From assembly GCA_965233865.1 (NCBI GenBank), contig OZ247587.1, positions 704,001 through 768,000 of the forward strand: a stretch of 64,000 nucleotides of DNA, read 5' to 3'. The translations under genes were made by a program, and so were the position numbers. Source of the stretch: Candidatus Neptunichlamydia sp. (GTDB lineage Bacteria > Chlamydiota > Chlamydiia > Chlamydiales > Simkaniaceae). Below are positions 11,828-15,878 of this stretch, piece after piece (the stretch's first letter is position 1; each line of letters opens with the position of its first letter). Under the pieces are notes generated by a model. That model did no database searches. It was not told where the DNA came from and saw nothing but the letters and a program-made list of their open reading frames with translations.

Positions 11828-13954
11828 ATGTATGCATCTGGAAATGTAATGGCACTAGAATTTCAAGTACAATATCAGCAACACCTTTCAAATCCTCTTC
11901 TTAACTACAAACGCCTGATTCCTTTTGACCAAATCGAACCCGATCATTTTCTCCCCGCGTTTAATGCGATGGAAGAAGAACTTCTTCCTCAAATCGAACT
12001 CCTTGAAGAAATCGAAAAACCCACCTGGGAATCGATTGTCGTTCCTTTGGAAGAGATCGAGGAAAAGATTCATCGTGTGGTGGGGCCTATGGCACATCTT
12101 AGACTAGTAAAAGATTCACCAGCACTTCGTAAAGCATGGAGCACCGTCGAACCACGGATCAACCAGATGGATCTTCGAATCAAACAAAGTCGTCCTCTCT
12201 TTGAGGCTTTTGAAACTCTTAGAACTAGTGAAACTTGGAACACTTATTCCTCTTCTCAGAAGCGGATCATTAAACTCCGTCTTTTGGAAGCTAAGCTTAA
12301 AGGGATCCATCTTGAAGACTCCGACCTCGATACATTCAACGCATATATTTTTCGCCTTTCTGAATTACAAAGTAGCTACGTCTCTAATATGATTGACGCC
12401 ACGAAAGAAACTGTTTTTATTATCACACAAAAAAAAGAACTCGAGGGAATTCCTTTTTCTACTTTAAAATTCATTTCTGAATTATACAATACAACGCGCT
12501 TAGAAGAAGACCCTCTCTCCACAGCTCAAGAAGGTCCCTGGAAATTATCCCTAACTCCCCACATTTATCTCACGATTCTGCGCCATTGCAAGTGTCGCAA
12601 GACTCGTGAACTCCTTTATAGAGAACAAATTAAAAAGGCCTCTCATGGTGATATCGACAATACCCCAAACTTGATGGAACAACTTCAAGTCCGAAAAGGG
12701 CTCGCCAACCTCCTCAACTATGAAAATTTTGCAGAACTAAGCCTCGCTTCAAAAATGGCTCCCAACATTGAAACTGTAAATAATTTCCTGGAAAAACTTC
12801 GAGAATCAAGTTGGATTTCTGGGAGAGAAGATCTTCTAGATGTCCAACTCTTTGCGGCACGTGCCGGATTTAAAGAACCCTTTATGCCGTGGGATTATGC
12901 CTTTTGGACAGAGCGTCTTCGAGAAGAACGATATCATCTTTCAGAAGAAGAGATGAAACCCTATTTCCAGCTCCCAAAAGTCCTTAAAGGTCTCTTTGAC
13001 CTCTGCCAAAAACTCTTTGGAATTACAATCATCAAGCCTGAAGTTCAACCCCCTGTCTGGCATAAAAATATCAGCTACTATCTGATCTACGATAATAATA
13101 ATGAGCAAATCTCTTCCTTCTACTTTGACCCTTTTACTCGCTCAAGCACAAAACGAGGTGGAGCTTGGACAGAGACTTGCCTTAACAGGACAAGACTCAA
13201 TGGAGAACTTCAGCTTCCGATTGCCTACATCGTTTGCAACTCCGCTCCTCCGATTGGTGAAGACCCAGCTCTACTTACCTTCCGCGAGCTTGAAACACTT
13301 TTTCATGAATTTGGACACGCTCTCCAACACATGCTCACTAAAATCAATTATGGAAGCATTTCGGGAACTAATGGAATCGAATGGGATGCGATTGAAATGG
13401 CAAGTAAGTTCATGGAAAACTGGTGTTATCATAAGCCTACCCTGAGACAAATCACCGCCCACTACAAGTCGGGGGAACCTCTACCTGAAGTTCTTATCGA
13501 AAAAATTCTCTCCGCACGTAATTTCAATGCAGGAAGCAGTATGCTAGCCCAACTCAAGTATAGCATGTGCGACATCTCCCTTCATAGCGACTATGATCCC
13601 TACGGCATCTTCACACCTTTTGATGTCTGGTACGAAAAATGTCTAATCACCTCTCACCTCCCTTGCTTAGAAGAAGACCGCTTCCTCTGCTCTTTCCACC
13701 ACATCTTTGGAGGTAACTCCTACGCTGCTGGTTACTATTCTTATAAGTGGGCAGAAGTTCTGAGTGCTGATGCATTTGAAGCCTTTGTGGAAGCAGGAGA
13801 AGACGACTGGTCGGCGCTACATGTCATCGGTGAAAAGTTCAAAACGACTTTTCTAGAACTTGGCGGCAGCGTCCATCCTATGGAAGTTTTCGAATCTTTT
13901 CGAGGCCGCGCACCTACAATAGAGGCCCTTCTTAACCAATCGGGGCTAAGATAA
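11828..13954 (+). CDS. prlC: Oligopeptidase A (M3 metallopeptidase)
   Basis: TLFHEFGHALQHML zinc motif, KRGGAW, YAAGYYSYKWAEVL, FRGR.P. Confidence 0.93.
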   Translation: MYASGNVMALEFQVQYQQHLSNPLLNYKRLIPFDQIEPDHFLPAFNAMEEELLPQIELLEEIEKPTWESIVVPLEEIEEKIHRVVGPMAHLRLVKDSPALRKAWSTVEPRINQMDLRIKQSRPLFEAFETLRTSETWNTYSSSQKRIIKLRLLEAKLKGIHLEDSDLDTFNAYIFRLSELQSSYVSNMIDATKETVFIITQKKELEGIPFSTLKFISELYNTTRLEEDPLSTAQEGPWKLSLTPHIYLTILRHCKCRKTRELLYREQIKKASHGDIDNTPNLMEQLQVRKGLANLLNYENFAELSLASKMAPNIETVNNFLEKLRESSWISGREDLLDVQLFAARAGFKEPFMPWDYAFWTERLREERYHLSEEEMKPYFQLPKVLKGLFDLCQKLFGITIIKPEVQPPVWHKNISYYLIYDNNNEQISSFYFDPFTRSSTKRGGAWTETCLNRTRLNGELQLPIAYIVCNSAPPIGEDPALLTFRELETLFHEFGHALQHMLTKINYGSISGTNGIEWDAIEMASKFMENWCYHKPTLRQITAHYKSGEPLPEVLIEKILSARNFNAGSSMLAQLKYSMCDISLHSDYDPYGIFTPFDVWYEKCLITSHLPCLEEDRFLCSFHHIFGGNSYAAGYYSYKWAEVLSADAFEAFVEAGEDDWSALHVIGEKFKTTFLELGGSVHPMEVFESFRGRAPTIEALLNQSGLR

Positions 13955-13998
13955 TGAGCCAGAAGAATATCCCCCTTCTTTTGATCTGCTATTGAGCC

Positions 13999-14205
13999 TT
14001 AGAAATCTTGTTTTTGAACTGTTTTTCTTCGATTTATTTCAGCTCTGTCCATGGCTTCATCACAAAGATTCATAACACGCTCTGAAAGAGCTTCAAAACT
14101 TTCTGCAGAAACTCTGAAATCTCCCCTTGACTTGATATATTCTTGAACGAGACTTTTTTTGATTAGCACTTCGCTTTTTTTAGCTTTTTTCTTTTTCTTG
14201 GCCAT
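13999..14205 (-). CDS. Bacterial histone-fold protein with Lys-rich N-terminal tail
   Basis: EVLIKKSLVQEYIK (alpha1), FRVSAE (L1), long alpha2, then RAEINRRKTVQKQDF with the R(K)TVxxxD L2/alpha3 motif. RBS-like AAAGGA lies upstream. Confidence 0.85.
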   Translation of the reverse strand: MAKKKKKAKKSEVLIKKSLVQEYIKSRGDFRVSAESFEALSERVMNLCDEAMDRAEINRRKTVQKQDF

Positions 14206-14429
14206 CTTTAGATCCTTTTGCTTTAATTACGGAATTTTTTTTTATAGCAGAATTCTATTATTTCCTCCAAACTTTCAAATTCCTTATAGAGATAGATAGG
14301 GGTTTGAGATTAAAAAGCCACACTGATTTCGACAGATCTATTATAGCTTGGGAGTCCTGGGAAAAGAAAAATTCGCATCACCACTATGCAAGCTAGCTAG
14401 CAACTAATTAAGAGTTGAAATGAGTTTCT

Positions 14430-15878
14430 TCACCGTAAATCAACCGAACGATCGTGATTAATAAAATACCGATTCAATATTTTATGGCTTCTCATTTCAA
14501 GAACCTCTCGATCAATAACGATTTCAACACCATCTCGAGTAACAATAAAAATATAAGCATCCTCATCACTCTCGACCACTTTAATCAGCTCGCGGATATT
14601 ACGTATTACTTTCCCATTAACTTGATCAACAATTTTCTTTTCCAGATGTTGATATCCCACATTGACAATATCATCAAGAACCCTTGACAAAACAACTACT
14701 TCATCTCTTCCTTCTTGAACTTTCCCGCAAAAAAGATCATAGAAAATGTCTATGAATCCAAGACTTTGGTCAAGGTCAATGTGTCTAAAAAAATTTTGCA
14801 CCAGGGGTTGAAACACTAGCCCCGCAGAAATATAGTAGGTAGGAGGCTTGTCAAACTCTTGACGTACAAGCGGCCTTCCCTTCCGTTTTGGGTCCACAAA
14901 GCTCGTTATTTCCAAGCAACTCCCTTCTCGCATCACTGCAACATCGATGCTATCTCCAAAATGCTTCATCATAATCAAGTATTGAAAAGGGAGTGAAATT
15001 CCCAGATCTTCCAATTCCACCCATCCATGGGAATCAATCTCATATCCATCAAGCGCTAAAAGAATATCTCCAGCTTTTAAGAAATCCGTAAGAAAATGAT
15101 TTTCTGGAACTTCAACAACAAGGAGCCCCCCTTTTCCTTTTGGAATACCATAATAGGCACGCATAGCAGGATTGCGAATAGATTGCACCTTCAAGGGGTT
15201 TTCTGGAAACCCCAAATACTCTCCTCTCTCCACTTCATCCATAAAATGCTTGATAATGGGGATGGGAATCATATACCCGATGTTTTGACCAAGAAAGGAA
15301 GCTTGATGAGCAACTCCCACAACCTTTCCTCCTGAAAGAACCGGTCCTCCACTATTACCAGGGTTAATCGGTGCATCGATCTGAGAAATCAGAAGGTTGG
15401 CTCTAGAATGCGCATAATTTCCGATCTCTACCCGAGAAACAATCCCCTTATTCACAGATATTTCACGCCCTCCCATAGGGAATCCATGAACAACAACCTC
15501 TTCCTGACGATGGATCAGCTCATCACTAAATTGGAGAGCTCTTTTCCCTTCAAAAAAGGAGGGATCTTCTAACTCTAAAACCGCTAAATCGCAATCATGA
15601 CCCACCACTTTTACACGTGCTTCATACCAGTCACGTGAAGATCCGCAGCGGACCTCAATAAATGAAGCATCTTTTATCACATGAGCATTGGTAACAATGA
15701 GATTTCCTTCAATGATAAATCCCGATCCCCCAGTTCTCTCTGTTGTTGGAGGCGCCCAAGGGCTTTCATAATCATAATCCTTGTGAGTTGTCGCAATTTG
15801 CACCACAGAGTTTTTCATCTCTTCCAAGGCAAATACAGAGAAAGTAAAGAAGAGTAATCCAAAAAACAACGATTTCAC
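14430..15878 (-). CDS. HtrA/Deg-family serine protease with PDZ domains (Deg2/Deg9-like architecture)
   Basis: Signal peptide; triad motifs TNAHV, CDLAVL and INPGNSGGP; C-terminal PDZ and Deg2-like tail (Y...GLVFQPL, VNG..IRN). Confidence 0.9.
   Translation of the reverse strand: MKSLFFGLLFFTFSVFALEEMKNSVVQIATTHKDYDYESPWAPPTTERTGGSGFIIEGNLIVTNAHVIKDASFIEVRCGSSRDWYEARVKVVGHDCDLAVLELEDPSFFEGKRALQFSDELIHRQEEVVVHGFPMGGREISVNKGIVSRVEIGNYAHSRANLLISQIDAPINPGNSGGPVLSGGKVVGVAHQASFLGQNIGYMIPIPIIKHFMDEVERGEYLGFPENPLKVQSIRNPAMRAYYGIPKGKGGLLVVEVPENHFLTDFLKAGDILLALDGYEIDSHGWVELEDLGISLPFQYLIMMKHFGDSIDVAVMREGSCLEITSFVDPKRKGRPLVRQEFDKPPTYYISAGLVFQPLVQNFFRHIDLDQSLGFIDIFYDLFCGKVQEGRDEVVVLSRVLDDIVNVGYQHLEKKIVDQVNGKVIRNIRELIKVVESDEDAYIFIVTRDGVEIVIDREVLEMRSHKILNRYFINHDRSVDLR

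What the first reader, a model, noticed from the sequence alone, without database searches (positions are those of the whole stretch)
13999..14205. True histone-fold protein with a Lys-rich N-terminal tail in a chlamydia
Seen: the 68-aa product has the alpha1-L1-alpha2-L2-alpha3 pattern, the RVS and RKTVxxxD loop motifs, and a basic tail AKKKKKAKK. An RBS and an extended -10-like TGcTATAAA lie upstream. Known: characterised bacterial histones such as Bdellovibrio Bd0055 share EVL..S.V...IK..G....S.E and RKTV..D but have no comparable tail. Pathogenic Chlamydia compact the EB nucleoid with H1-like Hc1/Hc2 proteins, which are not histone folds. Inference: this could be a tailed, potentially modifiable chromatin protein for EB/RB nucleoid remodelling. 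The tail also resembles a monopartite NLS, so a host-nucleus role is possible.
Basis: partly seen in the sequence, partly recalled or inferred. Interest (0 to 1): 0.85.

Follow-up and report, generated by a model that had tools for sequence, protein, structure and literature searches.

The report
Lysine-tailed bacterial histone in Simkaniaceae
A small, well-conserved gene in this chlamydia-related bacterium encodes a genuine bacterial histone with a lysine-rich tail, a type of protein already described in other bacteria but not yet singled out in this group.

Summary
Window 13999-14205 (minus strand) encodes a 68-aa protein that matches solved bacterial histones by sequence: HLp E 5e-8, HBb/Bd0055 E 6e-7. 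It is under strong purifying selection, with dN/dS 0.06-0.16. Its ribosome-binding site and extended -10 promoter element are conserved across genera. The Lys-rich tail is present in 27 of 28 aligned family members.

The novelty claim is weaker. Histones in Chlamydiota and positively charged tails on bacterial face-to-face (FtF) histones are both published (PMC11390915, PMC10627809). What this work adds is the following.
- The tailed form is a distinct subfamily, found only in the window's own family (12 of 35 genomes; named relatives are Simkaniaceae).
- It is separate from the widespread tail-less HBb-type histone, which this genome also has.
- It keeps all five FtF signature residues (R54, N58, R60, T62, D67).
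- It groups with FtF-signature proteins in a tree.
- It is modelled as a tetramer through the HLp-type interface.
- The folded part has net charge 0, so the tail supplies all of the +7.

The gene comes and goes within the genus, which argues against a core developmental role. A host-nucleus role has no support. Verdict: a new member of a known kind, of moderate interest.

The parts
13999..14205 (-). Coding sequence (68 codons plus TAA) of the tailed histone-fold protein
   Evidence: phmmer matches to HLp, HBb and HTkC; 27 homologues; dN/dS 0.06-0.16
14173..14205 (-). Codons 1-11, the Lys-rich N-terminal tail MAKKKKKAKKS (7 Lys, no acidic residue)
   Evidence: pLDDT < 50 for residues 5-13. No confident contacts before residue 12 in the tetramer model. 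Present in 27 of 28 aligned members, with length varying by in-frame indels. A 9-nt AKK indel occurs among close strains. The tail carries all of the net charge.
14002..14172 (-). Codons 12-68, the alpha3-truncated histone fold (alpha1 about 17-27, L1 with RVS, alpha2 about 34-63, L2 RKT, short C-terminal turn QKQDF). It holds the FtF signature R54, N58, R60, T62, D67.
   Evidence: Net charge 0 (11 K+R, 11 D+E).
14213..14217 (-). Shine-Dalgarno-like AAGGA, 7 nt upstream of the ATG
   Evidence: Read. A purine-rich AGGA-like element sits at about the same distance in all 11 orthologous loci printed.
14241..14270 (-). Putative sigma-70-type promoter: TTGGAG, an 18-nt spacer, then the extended -10 TGcTATAAA
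   Evidence: Read. The TGnTATA(A/G)(A/G) extended -10 is clear in 10 of the 11 loci printed and a TTGGnn -35-like hexamer in 7 of them, across genera. The consensus scan did not call it, because its -35 matches only 3 of 6 positions. The transcription start has not been measured.
13961..13979 (-). Weak hairpin (AGAAG, 9-nt loop, CTTCT) about 20 nt after the stop codon; a possible terminator
   Evidence: Read. The scan did not call it (0 terminator-like sites). Orthologues in other genera have much stronger GC-rich hairpins just after the stop, which is consistent with a monocistronic unit.

Best explanation
The gene encodes a small nucleoid-associated histone of the prokaryotic alpha3-truncated class.

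Inferred mechanism: two chains form the usual handshake dimer. Two dimers then join face-to-face through the C-terminal end of alpha2, loop L2 and the C-terminal turn. The residues involved are R54/I57/N58 against R60/Q66/F68. This gives a ring-shaped tetramer like Leptospira HLp and Thermococcus HTkC, around which DNA can be bent or wrapped.

The folded part is electrically neutral. The disordered 11-residue Lys tail (four tails per tetramer, +7 each) therefore supplies the net positive charge. It most likely acts as a non-specific DNA-affinity and charge-neutralising arm, like the Lys/Ala-rich regions of Hc1/H1.

The gene is a stand-alone unit with its own conserved extended -10 promoter. 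In this genome it works beside a tail-less HBb-type histone, Hc1 and two HU/IHF proteins. It is an accessory nucleoid protein, not a universal one, within its family (Simkaniaceae).

What is shown: the gene is real and conserved, it is homologous to solved bacterial histones, it keeps the signature residues, and its distribution is as described. What is inferred: tetramer formation, DNA binding, the tail's role and expression.
For: Homology: phmmer gives HLp E 5.4e-8, HBb E 6-8e-7 and HTkC E 4e-5. The family profile gives HLp 44.6 bits, HBb 41 and HTkC 37.

FtF signature: Schwab 2024 (section 7) lists R48, N52, R54, T56 and D61 with that spacing. These correspond to R54, N58, R60, T62 and D67, which are invariant in 28 of 28 family members and in 16 of 16 of a wider set. 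HLp's tetramer contacts R49/S52/N53 against R55/T61/F63 map onto R54/I57/N58 against R60/Q66/F68 through the alignment.

Four-copy model: score 0.86, best of 3 controls 0.00. That mark was reached by 20 of 30 proteins solved as pairs of one chain and by 1 of 23 solved as single chains. The three runs agree in at least 92% of contacts, and the partner's pLDDT is at least 83. One copy makes a handshake interface (residues 12-68) with a second copy. It makes a separate contact with a third copy through 53-54, 57-58 and 64-67.

Tree of 130 rows: a split with SH-aLRT 97 puts the tailed family with the FtF-signature proteins and the chlamydial tail-less family with the others. With columns 54, 57, 58 and 60 removed, the corresponding 88-row side still has support 90.

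Tail: it is present in 27 of 28 members. In 12 of 13 genomic frames there is a clear M[AV]KK start. The fold has net charge 0 and the tail +7.

Real gene: dN/dS is 0.06-0.16, and the RBS and promoter elements are conserved.

Weak hint of transcription in relatives: 4 of the 5 short contigs laid from three marine metatranscriptome runs lie on this ORF. The tool warns that such libraries can hold DNA and that runs found with a stretch cover it by choice.

Functional precedent read in papers: HLp is a tetramer in solution and wraps DNA (PMC12701072, sections 7 and 9). The L. interrogans histone is highly abundant and nucleoid-enriched, and a Waddlia histone-fold protein is highly expressed (PMC10627809, section 12).
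Against: No experiment on this protein or any orthologue was found.

By profile score the family is nearly equidistant from HLp (44.6 bits) and HBb (41 bits), so sequence similarity alone does not place it in FtF.

Schwab 2024's source data list a second entry, F8L7Y6, next to the Simkania 'Bacterial dimer' F8L7X8. F8L7Y6 is classed 'Undefined', with pLDDT 81.1. If it is the Simkania orthologue, their AlphaFold screen did not give a confident tetramer. That identification is my inference from neighbouring accessions and from the about 8-kb spacing of the two genes in G053 and G060; I could not check it.

The tetramer model may reflect memory of the solved HLp and HTkC tetramers. Its calibration used two copies, not four.

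Several HLp DNA-contact residues are not kept: K15 becomes L19, K17 becomes Q21, T27 becomes V32.

The Pfam match is below threshold, and Foldseek found no hit with E <= 0.001.

Presence is patchy: 12 of 35 family genomes and 4 of 15 genus genomes. The protein is therefore dispensable for the lineage.
Confidence: 0.6

Rival explanations
1. It is a dimer-only histone that bends or coats DNA like Bdellovibrio HBb, with a tail added. The R/N/R residues are retained ancestry and do not form a working tetramer interface.
For: HBb scores almost as well as HLp: 41 against 44.6 bits. The likely Simkania orthologue is 'Undefined' in Schwab 2024's AlphaFold-based classification (the identification is an inference). 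The tetramer model may be recalled from solved relatives.
Against: All five FtF signature residues are invariant. According to Schwab 2024, the HBb-type family lacks R48 and N52; the chlamydial tail-less consensus has N and D at the two aligned columns. The tree splits the tailed family from HBb-type proteins with support 97, or 90 without the signature columns. The model places a confident dimer-dimer contact exactly at the HLp interface.
Confidence: 0.22
2. It is a secreted histone mimic. The Lys tail acts as a nuclear localisation signal, and the protein is delivered into the host nucleus to act on host chromatin.
For: The tail KKKKK fits the loose K-K/R-x-K/R monopartite NLS pattern (recalled). 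Chlamydiae do send chromatin-acting proteins to the host nucleus: NUE, and Wcw_0377 in Waddlia (PMC6426960, passages read).
Against: No secretion signal, chaperone gene or effector context was seen, and neighbours differ between genera. Comparable Lys tails sit on related histones from Heimdallarchaeota and Kariarchaeaceae MAGs and from many metagenomic sources, so the tail is a family trait rather than an adaptation to a host nucleus. A 68-aa protein needs no NLS to enter a nucleus (general knowledge).
Confidence: 0.04
3. It is a sequence-specific regulator or a non-DNA-binding histone-fold adaptor, like NF-Y or CENP-X type proteins, rather than a general nucleoid protein.
For: The best Pfam rows are CBFD_NFYB_HMF and CENP-X, all below threshold. 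The fold itself is neutral. Presence is patchy.
Against: The closest solved relatives are DNA-compacting histones. The L2 RKT motif, S18 and K25, which match HLp DNA contacts, are kept. A poly-Lys tail favours non-specific DNA binding.
Confidence: 0.05

Closest known systems
[quoted passage not shown]
   Same: It is the best solved match: E 5.4e-8, and 41% identity over 51 aligned columns in Foldseek. It has the same short alpha2 and truncated alpha3. The tetramer residues R49/N53/R55 correspond to R54/N58/R60, and the RD clamp R55-D62 corresponds to R60-D67. Its N-terminal residues are disordered. The modelled dimer-dimer interface is at the same place.
   Different: HLp has only about 6-7 disordered N-terminal residues and no poly-Lys run. 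HLp keeps K15 and K17 on alpha1 where this protein has L19 and Q21. In Leptospira, HLp is the sole histone, no HU is present, and its L. interrogans homologue is reported as essential. Here the gene is accessory and sits beside HU/IHF, Hc1 and a second histone.
HBb / Bd0055, the 'bacterial dimer' histone of Bdellovibrio bacteriovorus (PDB 8CMP, 8FVX, 9EZZ)
   Same: It is a homologous alpha3-truncated fold with E 6-8e-7. It shares EVL..S.V..IK..G...S.E and RKTV..D.
   Different: HBb has no tail and, per Schwab 2024, lacks R48/N52. The true HBb orthologue in this genome is the other, tail-less 60-aa paralogue; its family profile scores 92.6 bits to HBb, against 41 bits for the tailed family.
Tail-bearing FtF histones of other bacteria and Asgard archaea (Schwab 2024, PMC11390915)
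   Same: They have positively charged MAKK-type N-terminal tails on FtF-signature folds. This applies to 23 of 54 such singlets. Named examples at 43-45% identity come from Heimdallarchaeota and Kariarchaeaceae MAGs.
   Different: Published bacterial FtF phyla are Spirochaetota, Planctomycetota, Bdellovibrionota and Myxococcota. Chlamydiota is listed only for 'bacterial dimers'. The tailed chlamydial family is a separate clade with support 97.
Hc1/HctA, the chlamydial H1-like protein
   Same: It is a Lys/Ala-rich, basic, low-complexity DNA-binding segment. It is present in the same genome.
   Different: There is no homology: Hc1 is not a histone fold, and the Pfam scan of this protein at E up to 10 returned only three histone-fold families, not Hc1. 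Hc1's basic region is C-terminal and much longer.

Membership tests
Histone fold superfamily (Pfam PF00808 CBFD_NFYB_HMF / PF00125 Histone) | Score at or above Pfam's gathering threshold | tested here: not met
   PF00808 scored 18.3 bits against 21.4. PF00125 scored 14.4 against 26.4. Short, divergent bacterial histones often fall below these models; see the next row.
Histone fold superfamily | Significant sequence match to proteins with a solved histone fold | tested here: met
   HLp E 5.4e-8, HBb E 6.4e-7, HTkC E 4e-5. The family profile improves these to 1.2e-10, 1.5e-9 and 2.7e-8, and also finds a eukaryotic H2B chain at E 4.5e-4.
Histone fold superfamily | Handshake dimer of antiparallel alpha2 helices | tested here: met
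   This holds in the model only. One copy contacts another over residues 12-68, with alpha2-alpha2 pairs such as 44-44, 40-47 and 40-44 at 0.5 A expected error. Score 0.86 against best control 0.00. The result may reflect memory of solved relatives.
Alpha3-truncated prokaryotic histones (Schwab 2024) | RxTxxxxD motif with the RD clamp, and alpha3 reduced to a short turn at the C-terminus | tested here: met
   R60-K-T62-xxxx-D67, and the protein ends at F68. All are invariant. No alpha3 helix appears in the AF2 monomer.
Face-to-face (FtF) histones | Conserved R48, N52, R54, T56 and D61 of the FtF profile | tested here: met
   R54, N58, R60, T62 and D67 have identical spacing and are invariant in 28 of 28 members and 16 of 16.
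Face-to-face (FtF) histones | Predicted or observed torus-like tetramer through the alpha2 C-terminus, L2 and alpha3 | tested here: met
   This holds in the model only. A dimer-dimer contact is formed through 53-54, 57-58 and 64-67 of one chain and the 51-68 segment of the partner. Counter-evidence: the probable Simkania orthologue F8L7Y6 is 'Undefined' in Schwab 2024's data. An experimental tetramer is not testable with these tools.
Face-to-face (FtF) histones | Clusters with FtF sequences rather than with bacterial dimers | tested here: inconclusive
   The tree places it on the FtF-signature side with support 97, or 90 without the signature columns. However, the groups were defined by me from the signature, no named FtF or HBb sequences were in the tree, and the profile scores to HLp and HBb are close.
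Bacterial dimer histones (HBb type) | High sequence relatedness to HBb, and absence of R48/N52 | tested here: not met
   It scores 41 bits to HBb, against 92.6 bits for the genome's other histone family. R54 and N58 are present.
Hc1/Hc2 chlamydial H1-like proteins | Match to Pfam Hc1 (PF07432) or HC2 (PF07382) | tested here: not met
   The Pfam scan at E up to 10 listed only histone-fold families. The genome's Hc1 is a different gene. No HC2 match was found in the genome.
Type III secreted nuclear effectors (nucleomodulins) | Secretion signal and delivery to the host nucleus | not testable with these tools
   No predictor or experiment was available, and no effector-like gene context was seen.

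The most novel reading that the evidence does not exclude
Simkaniaceae may run a eukaryote-like, three-part chromatin system inside a bacterium. The parts would be a tetrameric core histone whose Lys tails are written on by the genome's own SET-domain lysine methyltransferases (two copies) or by acetyltransferases, an H1-like linker protein (Hc1), and a second, tail-less histone. Tail modification would switch nucleoid compaction between developmental stages. It would be the first bacterial case of regulated histone-tail modification.
Probability: 0.08. Interest if true: 0.85.

Novelty: new member of a known kind. Interest (0 to 1): 0.4.

Why it matters
Bacterial histones were recognised as real chromatin proteins only in 2023-2025, and only two have been characterised biochemically: HBb and HLp. 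This locus shows that one chlamydial family carries two different histone types in one genome. One is a dimer-type orthologue of HBb. The other is a tailed, FtF-like form whose folded part is neutral, so that its DNA affinity should depend on the tail. That makes it a clean natural test case for what a histone tail does in a bacterium.

Simkania negevensis, a member of the same family, is to my recollection cultivable in amoebae and in cell lines. The published census appears to have left the Simkania copy 'Undefined'. Placing it with the FtF tetramers would extend that class to the PVC superphylum and to obligate intracellular bacteria that also use H1-like proteins.

It does not overturn anything. 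Histone folds in Chlamydiota and basic tails on bacterial FtF histones are already in print.

Tried and rejected
- The Foldseek search of the AF2 monomer against the PDB gave no hit with E <= 0.001. The monomer model is mediocre (pLDDT 71), as expected for an obligate dimer, so I did not use it as evidence against the fold.
- The consensus scan found no minus-strand promoter and no terminator. I relied on conservation across orthologues instead.
- The Rfam gathering scan of the whole window gave 0 matches.
- The search for related loci with the wide alignment A3 failed because it had no conserved stretch. I repeated it with A1.
- Conserved operon context was rejected. The M3 peptidase and serine protease neighbours are shared only within the genus: 5 of the 20 loci checked show at least one of them.
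- RNA evidence: only short contigs from three metatranscriptome runs were available, and no raw-read RNA run of this organism. The absence of cover on the protease gene in those runs is not used as evidence.
- A horizontal-transfer signal from base composition is too confounded by Lys codons to use. The gene has GC 34% against 41% for the genome.
- Earlier findings of this scan, looked up by genome and by sequence, returned nothing.
- I considered a spurious ORF and an internal GTG start at V13. Both were rejected because of the conserved ATG-GCN-AAR start, the RBS and the in-frame tail indels.

Full report
**1. What is there**

On the minus strand, window 13999..14205 holds an ATG-started ORF of 68 codons. 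Its product is MAKKKKKAKKSEVLIKKSLVQEYIKSRGDFRVSAESFEALSERVMNLCDEAMDRAEINRRKTVQKQDF. It lies between two other genes. One is a convergent 708-aa ORF, which by my reading of its HEFGH motif (not tested) is an M3-type oligopeptidase (11828..13954, plus strand). The other is an upstream 482-aa ORF on the same strand, which looks to me like a trypsin-like serine protease (also not tested) (14430..15878, minus strand).

**2. Is it a real gene?**

Yes.
- A word-indexed search of 5.8 billion proteins returned 27 homologues of 55-75 aa at 71-99% identity. JGI names several 'histone H3/H4', and NCBI gives two as hypothetical proteins of Simkaniaceae and Chlamydiota MAGs.
- Twenty-four columns are invariant in the 28-row alignment.
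- Over the last 38 codons, dN/dS against orthologues from other genera is 0.06-0.16, with dS about 1 or saturated.
- An AAGGA-type RBS lies 6-8 nt before the ATG.
- An extended -10 element TGnTATA(A/G)(A/G) lies about 45 nt upstream, clear in 10 of the 11 loci printed (L012 has TGcTAAAAG).
- A TTGGnn -35-like hexamer lies 17-18 nt further up, clear in 7 of the 11.
- These three elements recur in orthologous loci of different genera whose flanks are otherwise unalignable by eye.
- The generic scan did not call this promoter, because its -35 matches only 3 of 6 positions.
- Orthologues in other genera have strong GC-rich hairpins right after the stop codon. The window's own hairpin is weak.

**3. 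Is it a histone fold?**

By sequence, yes.
- phmmer against all PDB chains gives HLp of Leptospira perolatii (9qt0) at E 5.4e-8, HBb/Bd0055 (8cmp, 8fvx) at E 6-8e-7 and HTkC (9f2c) at E 4e-5.
- The family profile sharpens these to 1e-10, 2e-9 and 3e-8, and reaches a eukaryotic H2B chain at E 4.5e-4.
- Pfam's general models stay below threshold: PF00808 at 18.3 against 21.4 bits.
- The AF2 monomer is only moderately confident: pLDDT 71, helices 17-27 and 34-63, tail residues 5-13 below 50.
- Foldseek gives no hit with E <= 0.001, although its first seven rows are HLp, HBb and HTkC.

The protein ends five residues after the L2 threonine. It therefore belongs to the alpha3-truncated prokaryotic histones rather than to the full three-helix nucleosomal type.

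**4. Two histone families in Chlamydiota**

The own genome is one contig of 1,830,388 bp. It has a second histone-fold gene at C1:556864-557046: 60 aa, tail-less, 34% identical.

I scanned 400 scored genomes of the phylum with the family profile; one further genome could not be scored.
- 57 of 400 had a match.
- The scores are bimodal. Twelve genomes, all in the window's own family, score 113-147 bits. The next best score is 57 bits.
- I call the high scorers 'type A'. In 12 of 13 genomic frames they begin M[AV]KK followed by a Lys-rich stretch of about 4-20 residues. The 13th, L013, is Lys-rich but has no start codon in the frame as read and is cut by the contig end.
- The low scorers ('type B', 19 frames read) begin at a Met just before E[VT]LVV and have no tail. 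Those starts are my choice and are not verified.
- The type B profile scores 92.6 bits to HBb and 49.6 to HLp, so type B is the HBb orthologue.
- This matches the literature. Schwab 2024 lists Chlamydiota among phyla with 'bacterial dimer' histones (PMC11390915, passages). Its source data class Waddlia D6YWW1 and F8L7X8 as 'Bacterial dimer'.
- Named genome records place type A in Simkaniaceae, Simkania sp., Chlamydiia and Chlamydiota MAGs: 9 loci, the closest 99% identical in a complete Simkaniaceae MAG.
- A family of 1.0-1.1-Mb genomes had 0 of 29 with any match. From genome size I take this family to be Chlamydiaceae.

**5. Type A looks like a face-to-face (FtF) histone**

- Schwab 2024 defines FtF histones by a predicted ring tetramer and by conserved R48, N52, R54, T56 and D61 (section 7).
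- Hu 2025 shows that HLp tetramers are held by R49/S52/N53 of one chain against R55/T61/F63 of another (PMC12701072, section 7).
- Through the alignment these map to R54/I57/N58 and R60/Q66/F68.
- R54, N58, R60, T62 and D67 are invariant in all 28 type A sequences. They are also invariant in a 16-row alignment with distant relatives.
- At the columns aligned to R54 and N58, the type B consensus has N and D; neither column is invariant among the 18 type B sequences.

A four-copy model scored 0.86 against 0.00 for the best of 3 controls.
- That mark was reached by 20 of 30 proteins solved as pairs of one chain and by 1 of 23 solved as single chains.
- The runs agree in at least 92% of contacts, and the partner's pLDDT is at least 83.
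- The scored copy makes a handshake interface over residues 12-68 with one copy.
- It makes a second, smaller contact with another copy through 53-54, 57-58 and 64-67. That is the HLp interface.
- Because HLp and HTkC tetramers are solved, this pass shows likeness and may be memory. The calibration also used two copies, not four.

In the exhaustive representative search, 161 proteins reached E <= 0.001 and only 3 reached E <= 1e-10.
- The best singlets carry the R/N/R signature.
- I built a maximum-likelihood tree of 130 rows: 28 type A, 18 type B and 84 singlets of at most 100 aa. I dropped doublets, longer proteins and rows whose alignment could not be anchored.
- A split with SH-aLRT 97 places type A with all 54 signature-bearing singlets and type B with 25 of the 30 others.
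- Without columns 54, 57, 58 and 60, the matching 88-row side has support 90.
- Fifty-seven columns are few, the labels are mine, and no named FtF or HBb sequence was in the tree.

Evidence against:
- The profile scores to HLp (44.6 bits) and HBb (41 bits) are close.
- Schwab's data list F8L7Y6 directly after F8L7X8 as 'Undefined', with pLDDT 81.1. I suspect this is the Simkania type A protein, because the accessions are adjacent and types A and B lie about 8 kb apart in G053 and G060. I could not check this. If it is right, their screen did not find a confident tetramer.

**6. The tail**

- It is a family trait. It is present in 27 of 28 aligned members; the exception, P0028, is a 55-aa entry that starts at the fold.
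- Its length changes by in-frame indels.
- Close strains differ by a 9-nt unit encoding AKK: 68 against 71 aa. The same insertion appears in contigs of two of the three metatranscriptome runs.
- The tail holds 7 Lys and no acidic residue. Residues 12-68 have 11 K+R and 11 D+E. The net charge of the protein is therefore entirely in the tail.
- It is predicted to be disordered and makes no confident contact in the tetramer model.

Such tails are not new.
- In my set, 23 of 54 signature-bearing singlets had an N-terminal extension of net charge >= +3, and 20 begin M[ASTV][KR][KR]. Among the others the figure was 4 of 30.
- The three nearest outgroup proteins, P0033, P0046 and P0057, have 27-35-residue Lys-rich extensions.
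- Two tailed relatives at 43-45% identity are named as Heimdallarchaeota and Kariarchaeaceae MAG proteins.

**7. Context and distribution**

- The genome also encodes Hc1 (58.3 bits; ORF) and two HU/IHF-family proteins. It has two SET-domain ORFs and no Pfam HC2 match.
- In the family, counting 35 genomes with the window's own, 7 have both A and B, 5 have A only, 7 have B only and 16 have neither. Several of those with neither are 97-99% complete.
- In the genus, 4 of 15 genomes have type A.
- At the syntenic site of a relative at 85-87% DNA identity (G041), the peptidase gene is followed 40 bp later by a 446-aa ORF and then the protease gene, with no histone gene. Another relative (G045) has the histone gene and that ORF. 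The window has the histone gene only.
- Outside the genus the neighbours differ.
- The gene is therefore a mobile-in-evolution, stand-alone accessory gene. It is not a fixed part of the chlamydial developmental machinery.

**8. Expression**

No direct data exist for this organism. Three marine or seawater metatranscriptome runs hold five short contigs at 80-97% likeness, and four of them lie on the ORF. The tool warns that DNA can be present in such libraries and that holders cover the stretch they were found with. I count this as a weak hint only. Published expression evidence for a chlamydial histone concerns Waddlia (PMC10627809, Fig. 6a legend). Going by Schwab's label for D6YWW1, that protein is type B.

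**9. Verdict**

- It is a tailed histone-fold protein in a chlamydia.
- The tail is a known feature of its wider class.
- An EB/RB role is unproven and made less likely by patchy presence.
- A host-nucleus role has no support.

The most likely mechanism is an FtF-type tetramer that binds and bends or wraps DNA, with Lys tails supplying the affinity. I put the whole chain at 0.6 and 'DNA-binding nucleoid histone' alone at about 0.85. It is a new member of a known kind.

Papers and what I saw of them:
- PMC11390915: passages, section 7 and two searches of its source-data file.
- PMC12701072: passages and sections 6, 7 and 9.
- PMC10627809: passages and section 12.
- PMC6426960: passages.

I saw no figures and no PDF supplements. 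My two literature searches found no paper that describes a tailed or FtF-type histone in Simkaniaceae. That covers only the held open-access library.

Noticed in passing
L003:1510-1692 (+), = own genome C1:556864-557046, outside the window: A second, tail-less 60-aa histone-fold gene. Its family profile scores 92.6 bits to Bdellovibrio HBb, so it is the 'bacterial dimer' orthologue. This genome therefore has two histone types.
   Followed up: yes
L001:1465-1794 (+), = own genome C1 around 1517135-1517305: An Hc1 (H1-like) homologue of about 100 aa with a long Lys-rich C-terminal region. No Pfam HC2 match was found anywhere in the genome.
   Followed up: partly
L033 and L034 (own genome C1:525195-525503 minus strand, and C1:1649274-1649585 plus strand): Two SET-domain ORFs (open frames of 313 and 210 aa), both above the Pfam cut-off. 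They are candidate lysine methyltransferases. Nothing links them to the histone tail.
   Followed up: no
L046:2968-4308 (+) and L047:2993-4333 (-): In two sister genomes a 446-aa ORF with a signal-peptide-like start (it looks to me like an outer-membrane porin; not tested) occupies the slot between the protease and the histone or peptidase gene. It is absent from the window. One of these genomes (G041) lacks the histone gene. The slot is a hotspot of gene gain and loss.
   Followed up: partly
window 14166-14183 (minus-strand codons 8-13): Tail-length polymorphism by a 9-nt unit (GCTAAAAAA, encoding AKK). Close strains and two of the three metatranscriptome runs carry one extra copy (68 against 71 aa).
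   Followed up: partly
window 14250-14332: In run X1 the assembly graph breaks here. Minor variant contigs with a 1-nt gap have depth 5.6-9.7, against about 1500 for the main form, just upstream of the putative promoter. This could be a low-frequency indel variant or a sequencing artefact.
   Followed up: no
P0029, P0030, P0032, P0034-P0036 and P0039: The strongest matches outside the family are 121-187-aa proteins with two histone-fold stretches (doublets). There is also one 2266-aa protein with a listed score but no aligned stretch. None were examined.
   Followed up: no
P0044 and P0049: Lys-tailed FtF-signature relatives at 43-45% identity are named as Heimdallarchaeota and Kariarchaeaceae (Asgard) MAG proteins. 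The MAKK-type tail therefore spans bacteria and Asgard archaea.
   Followed up: no
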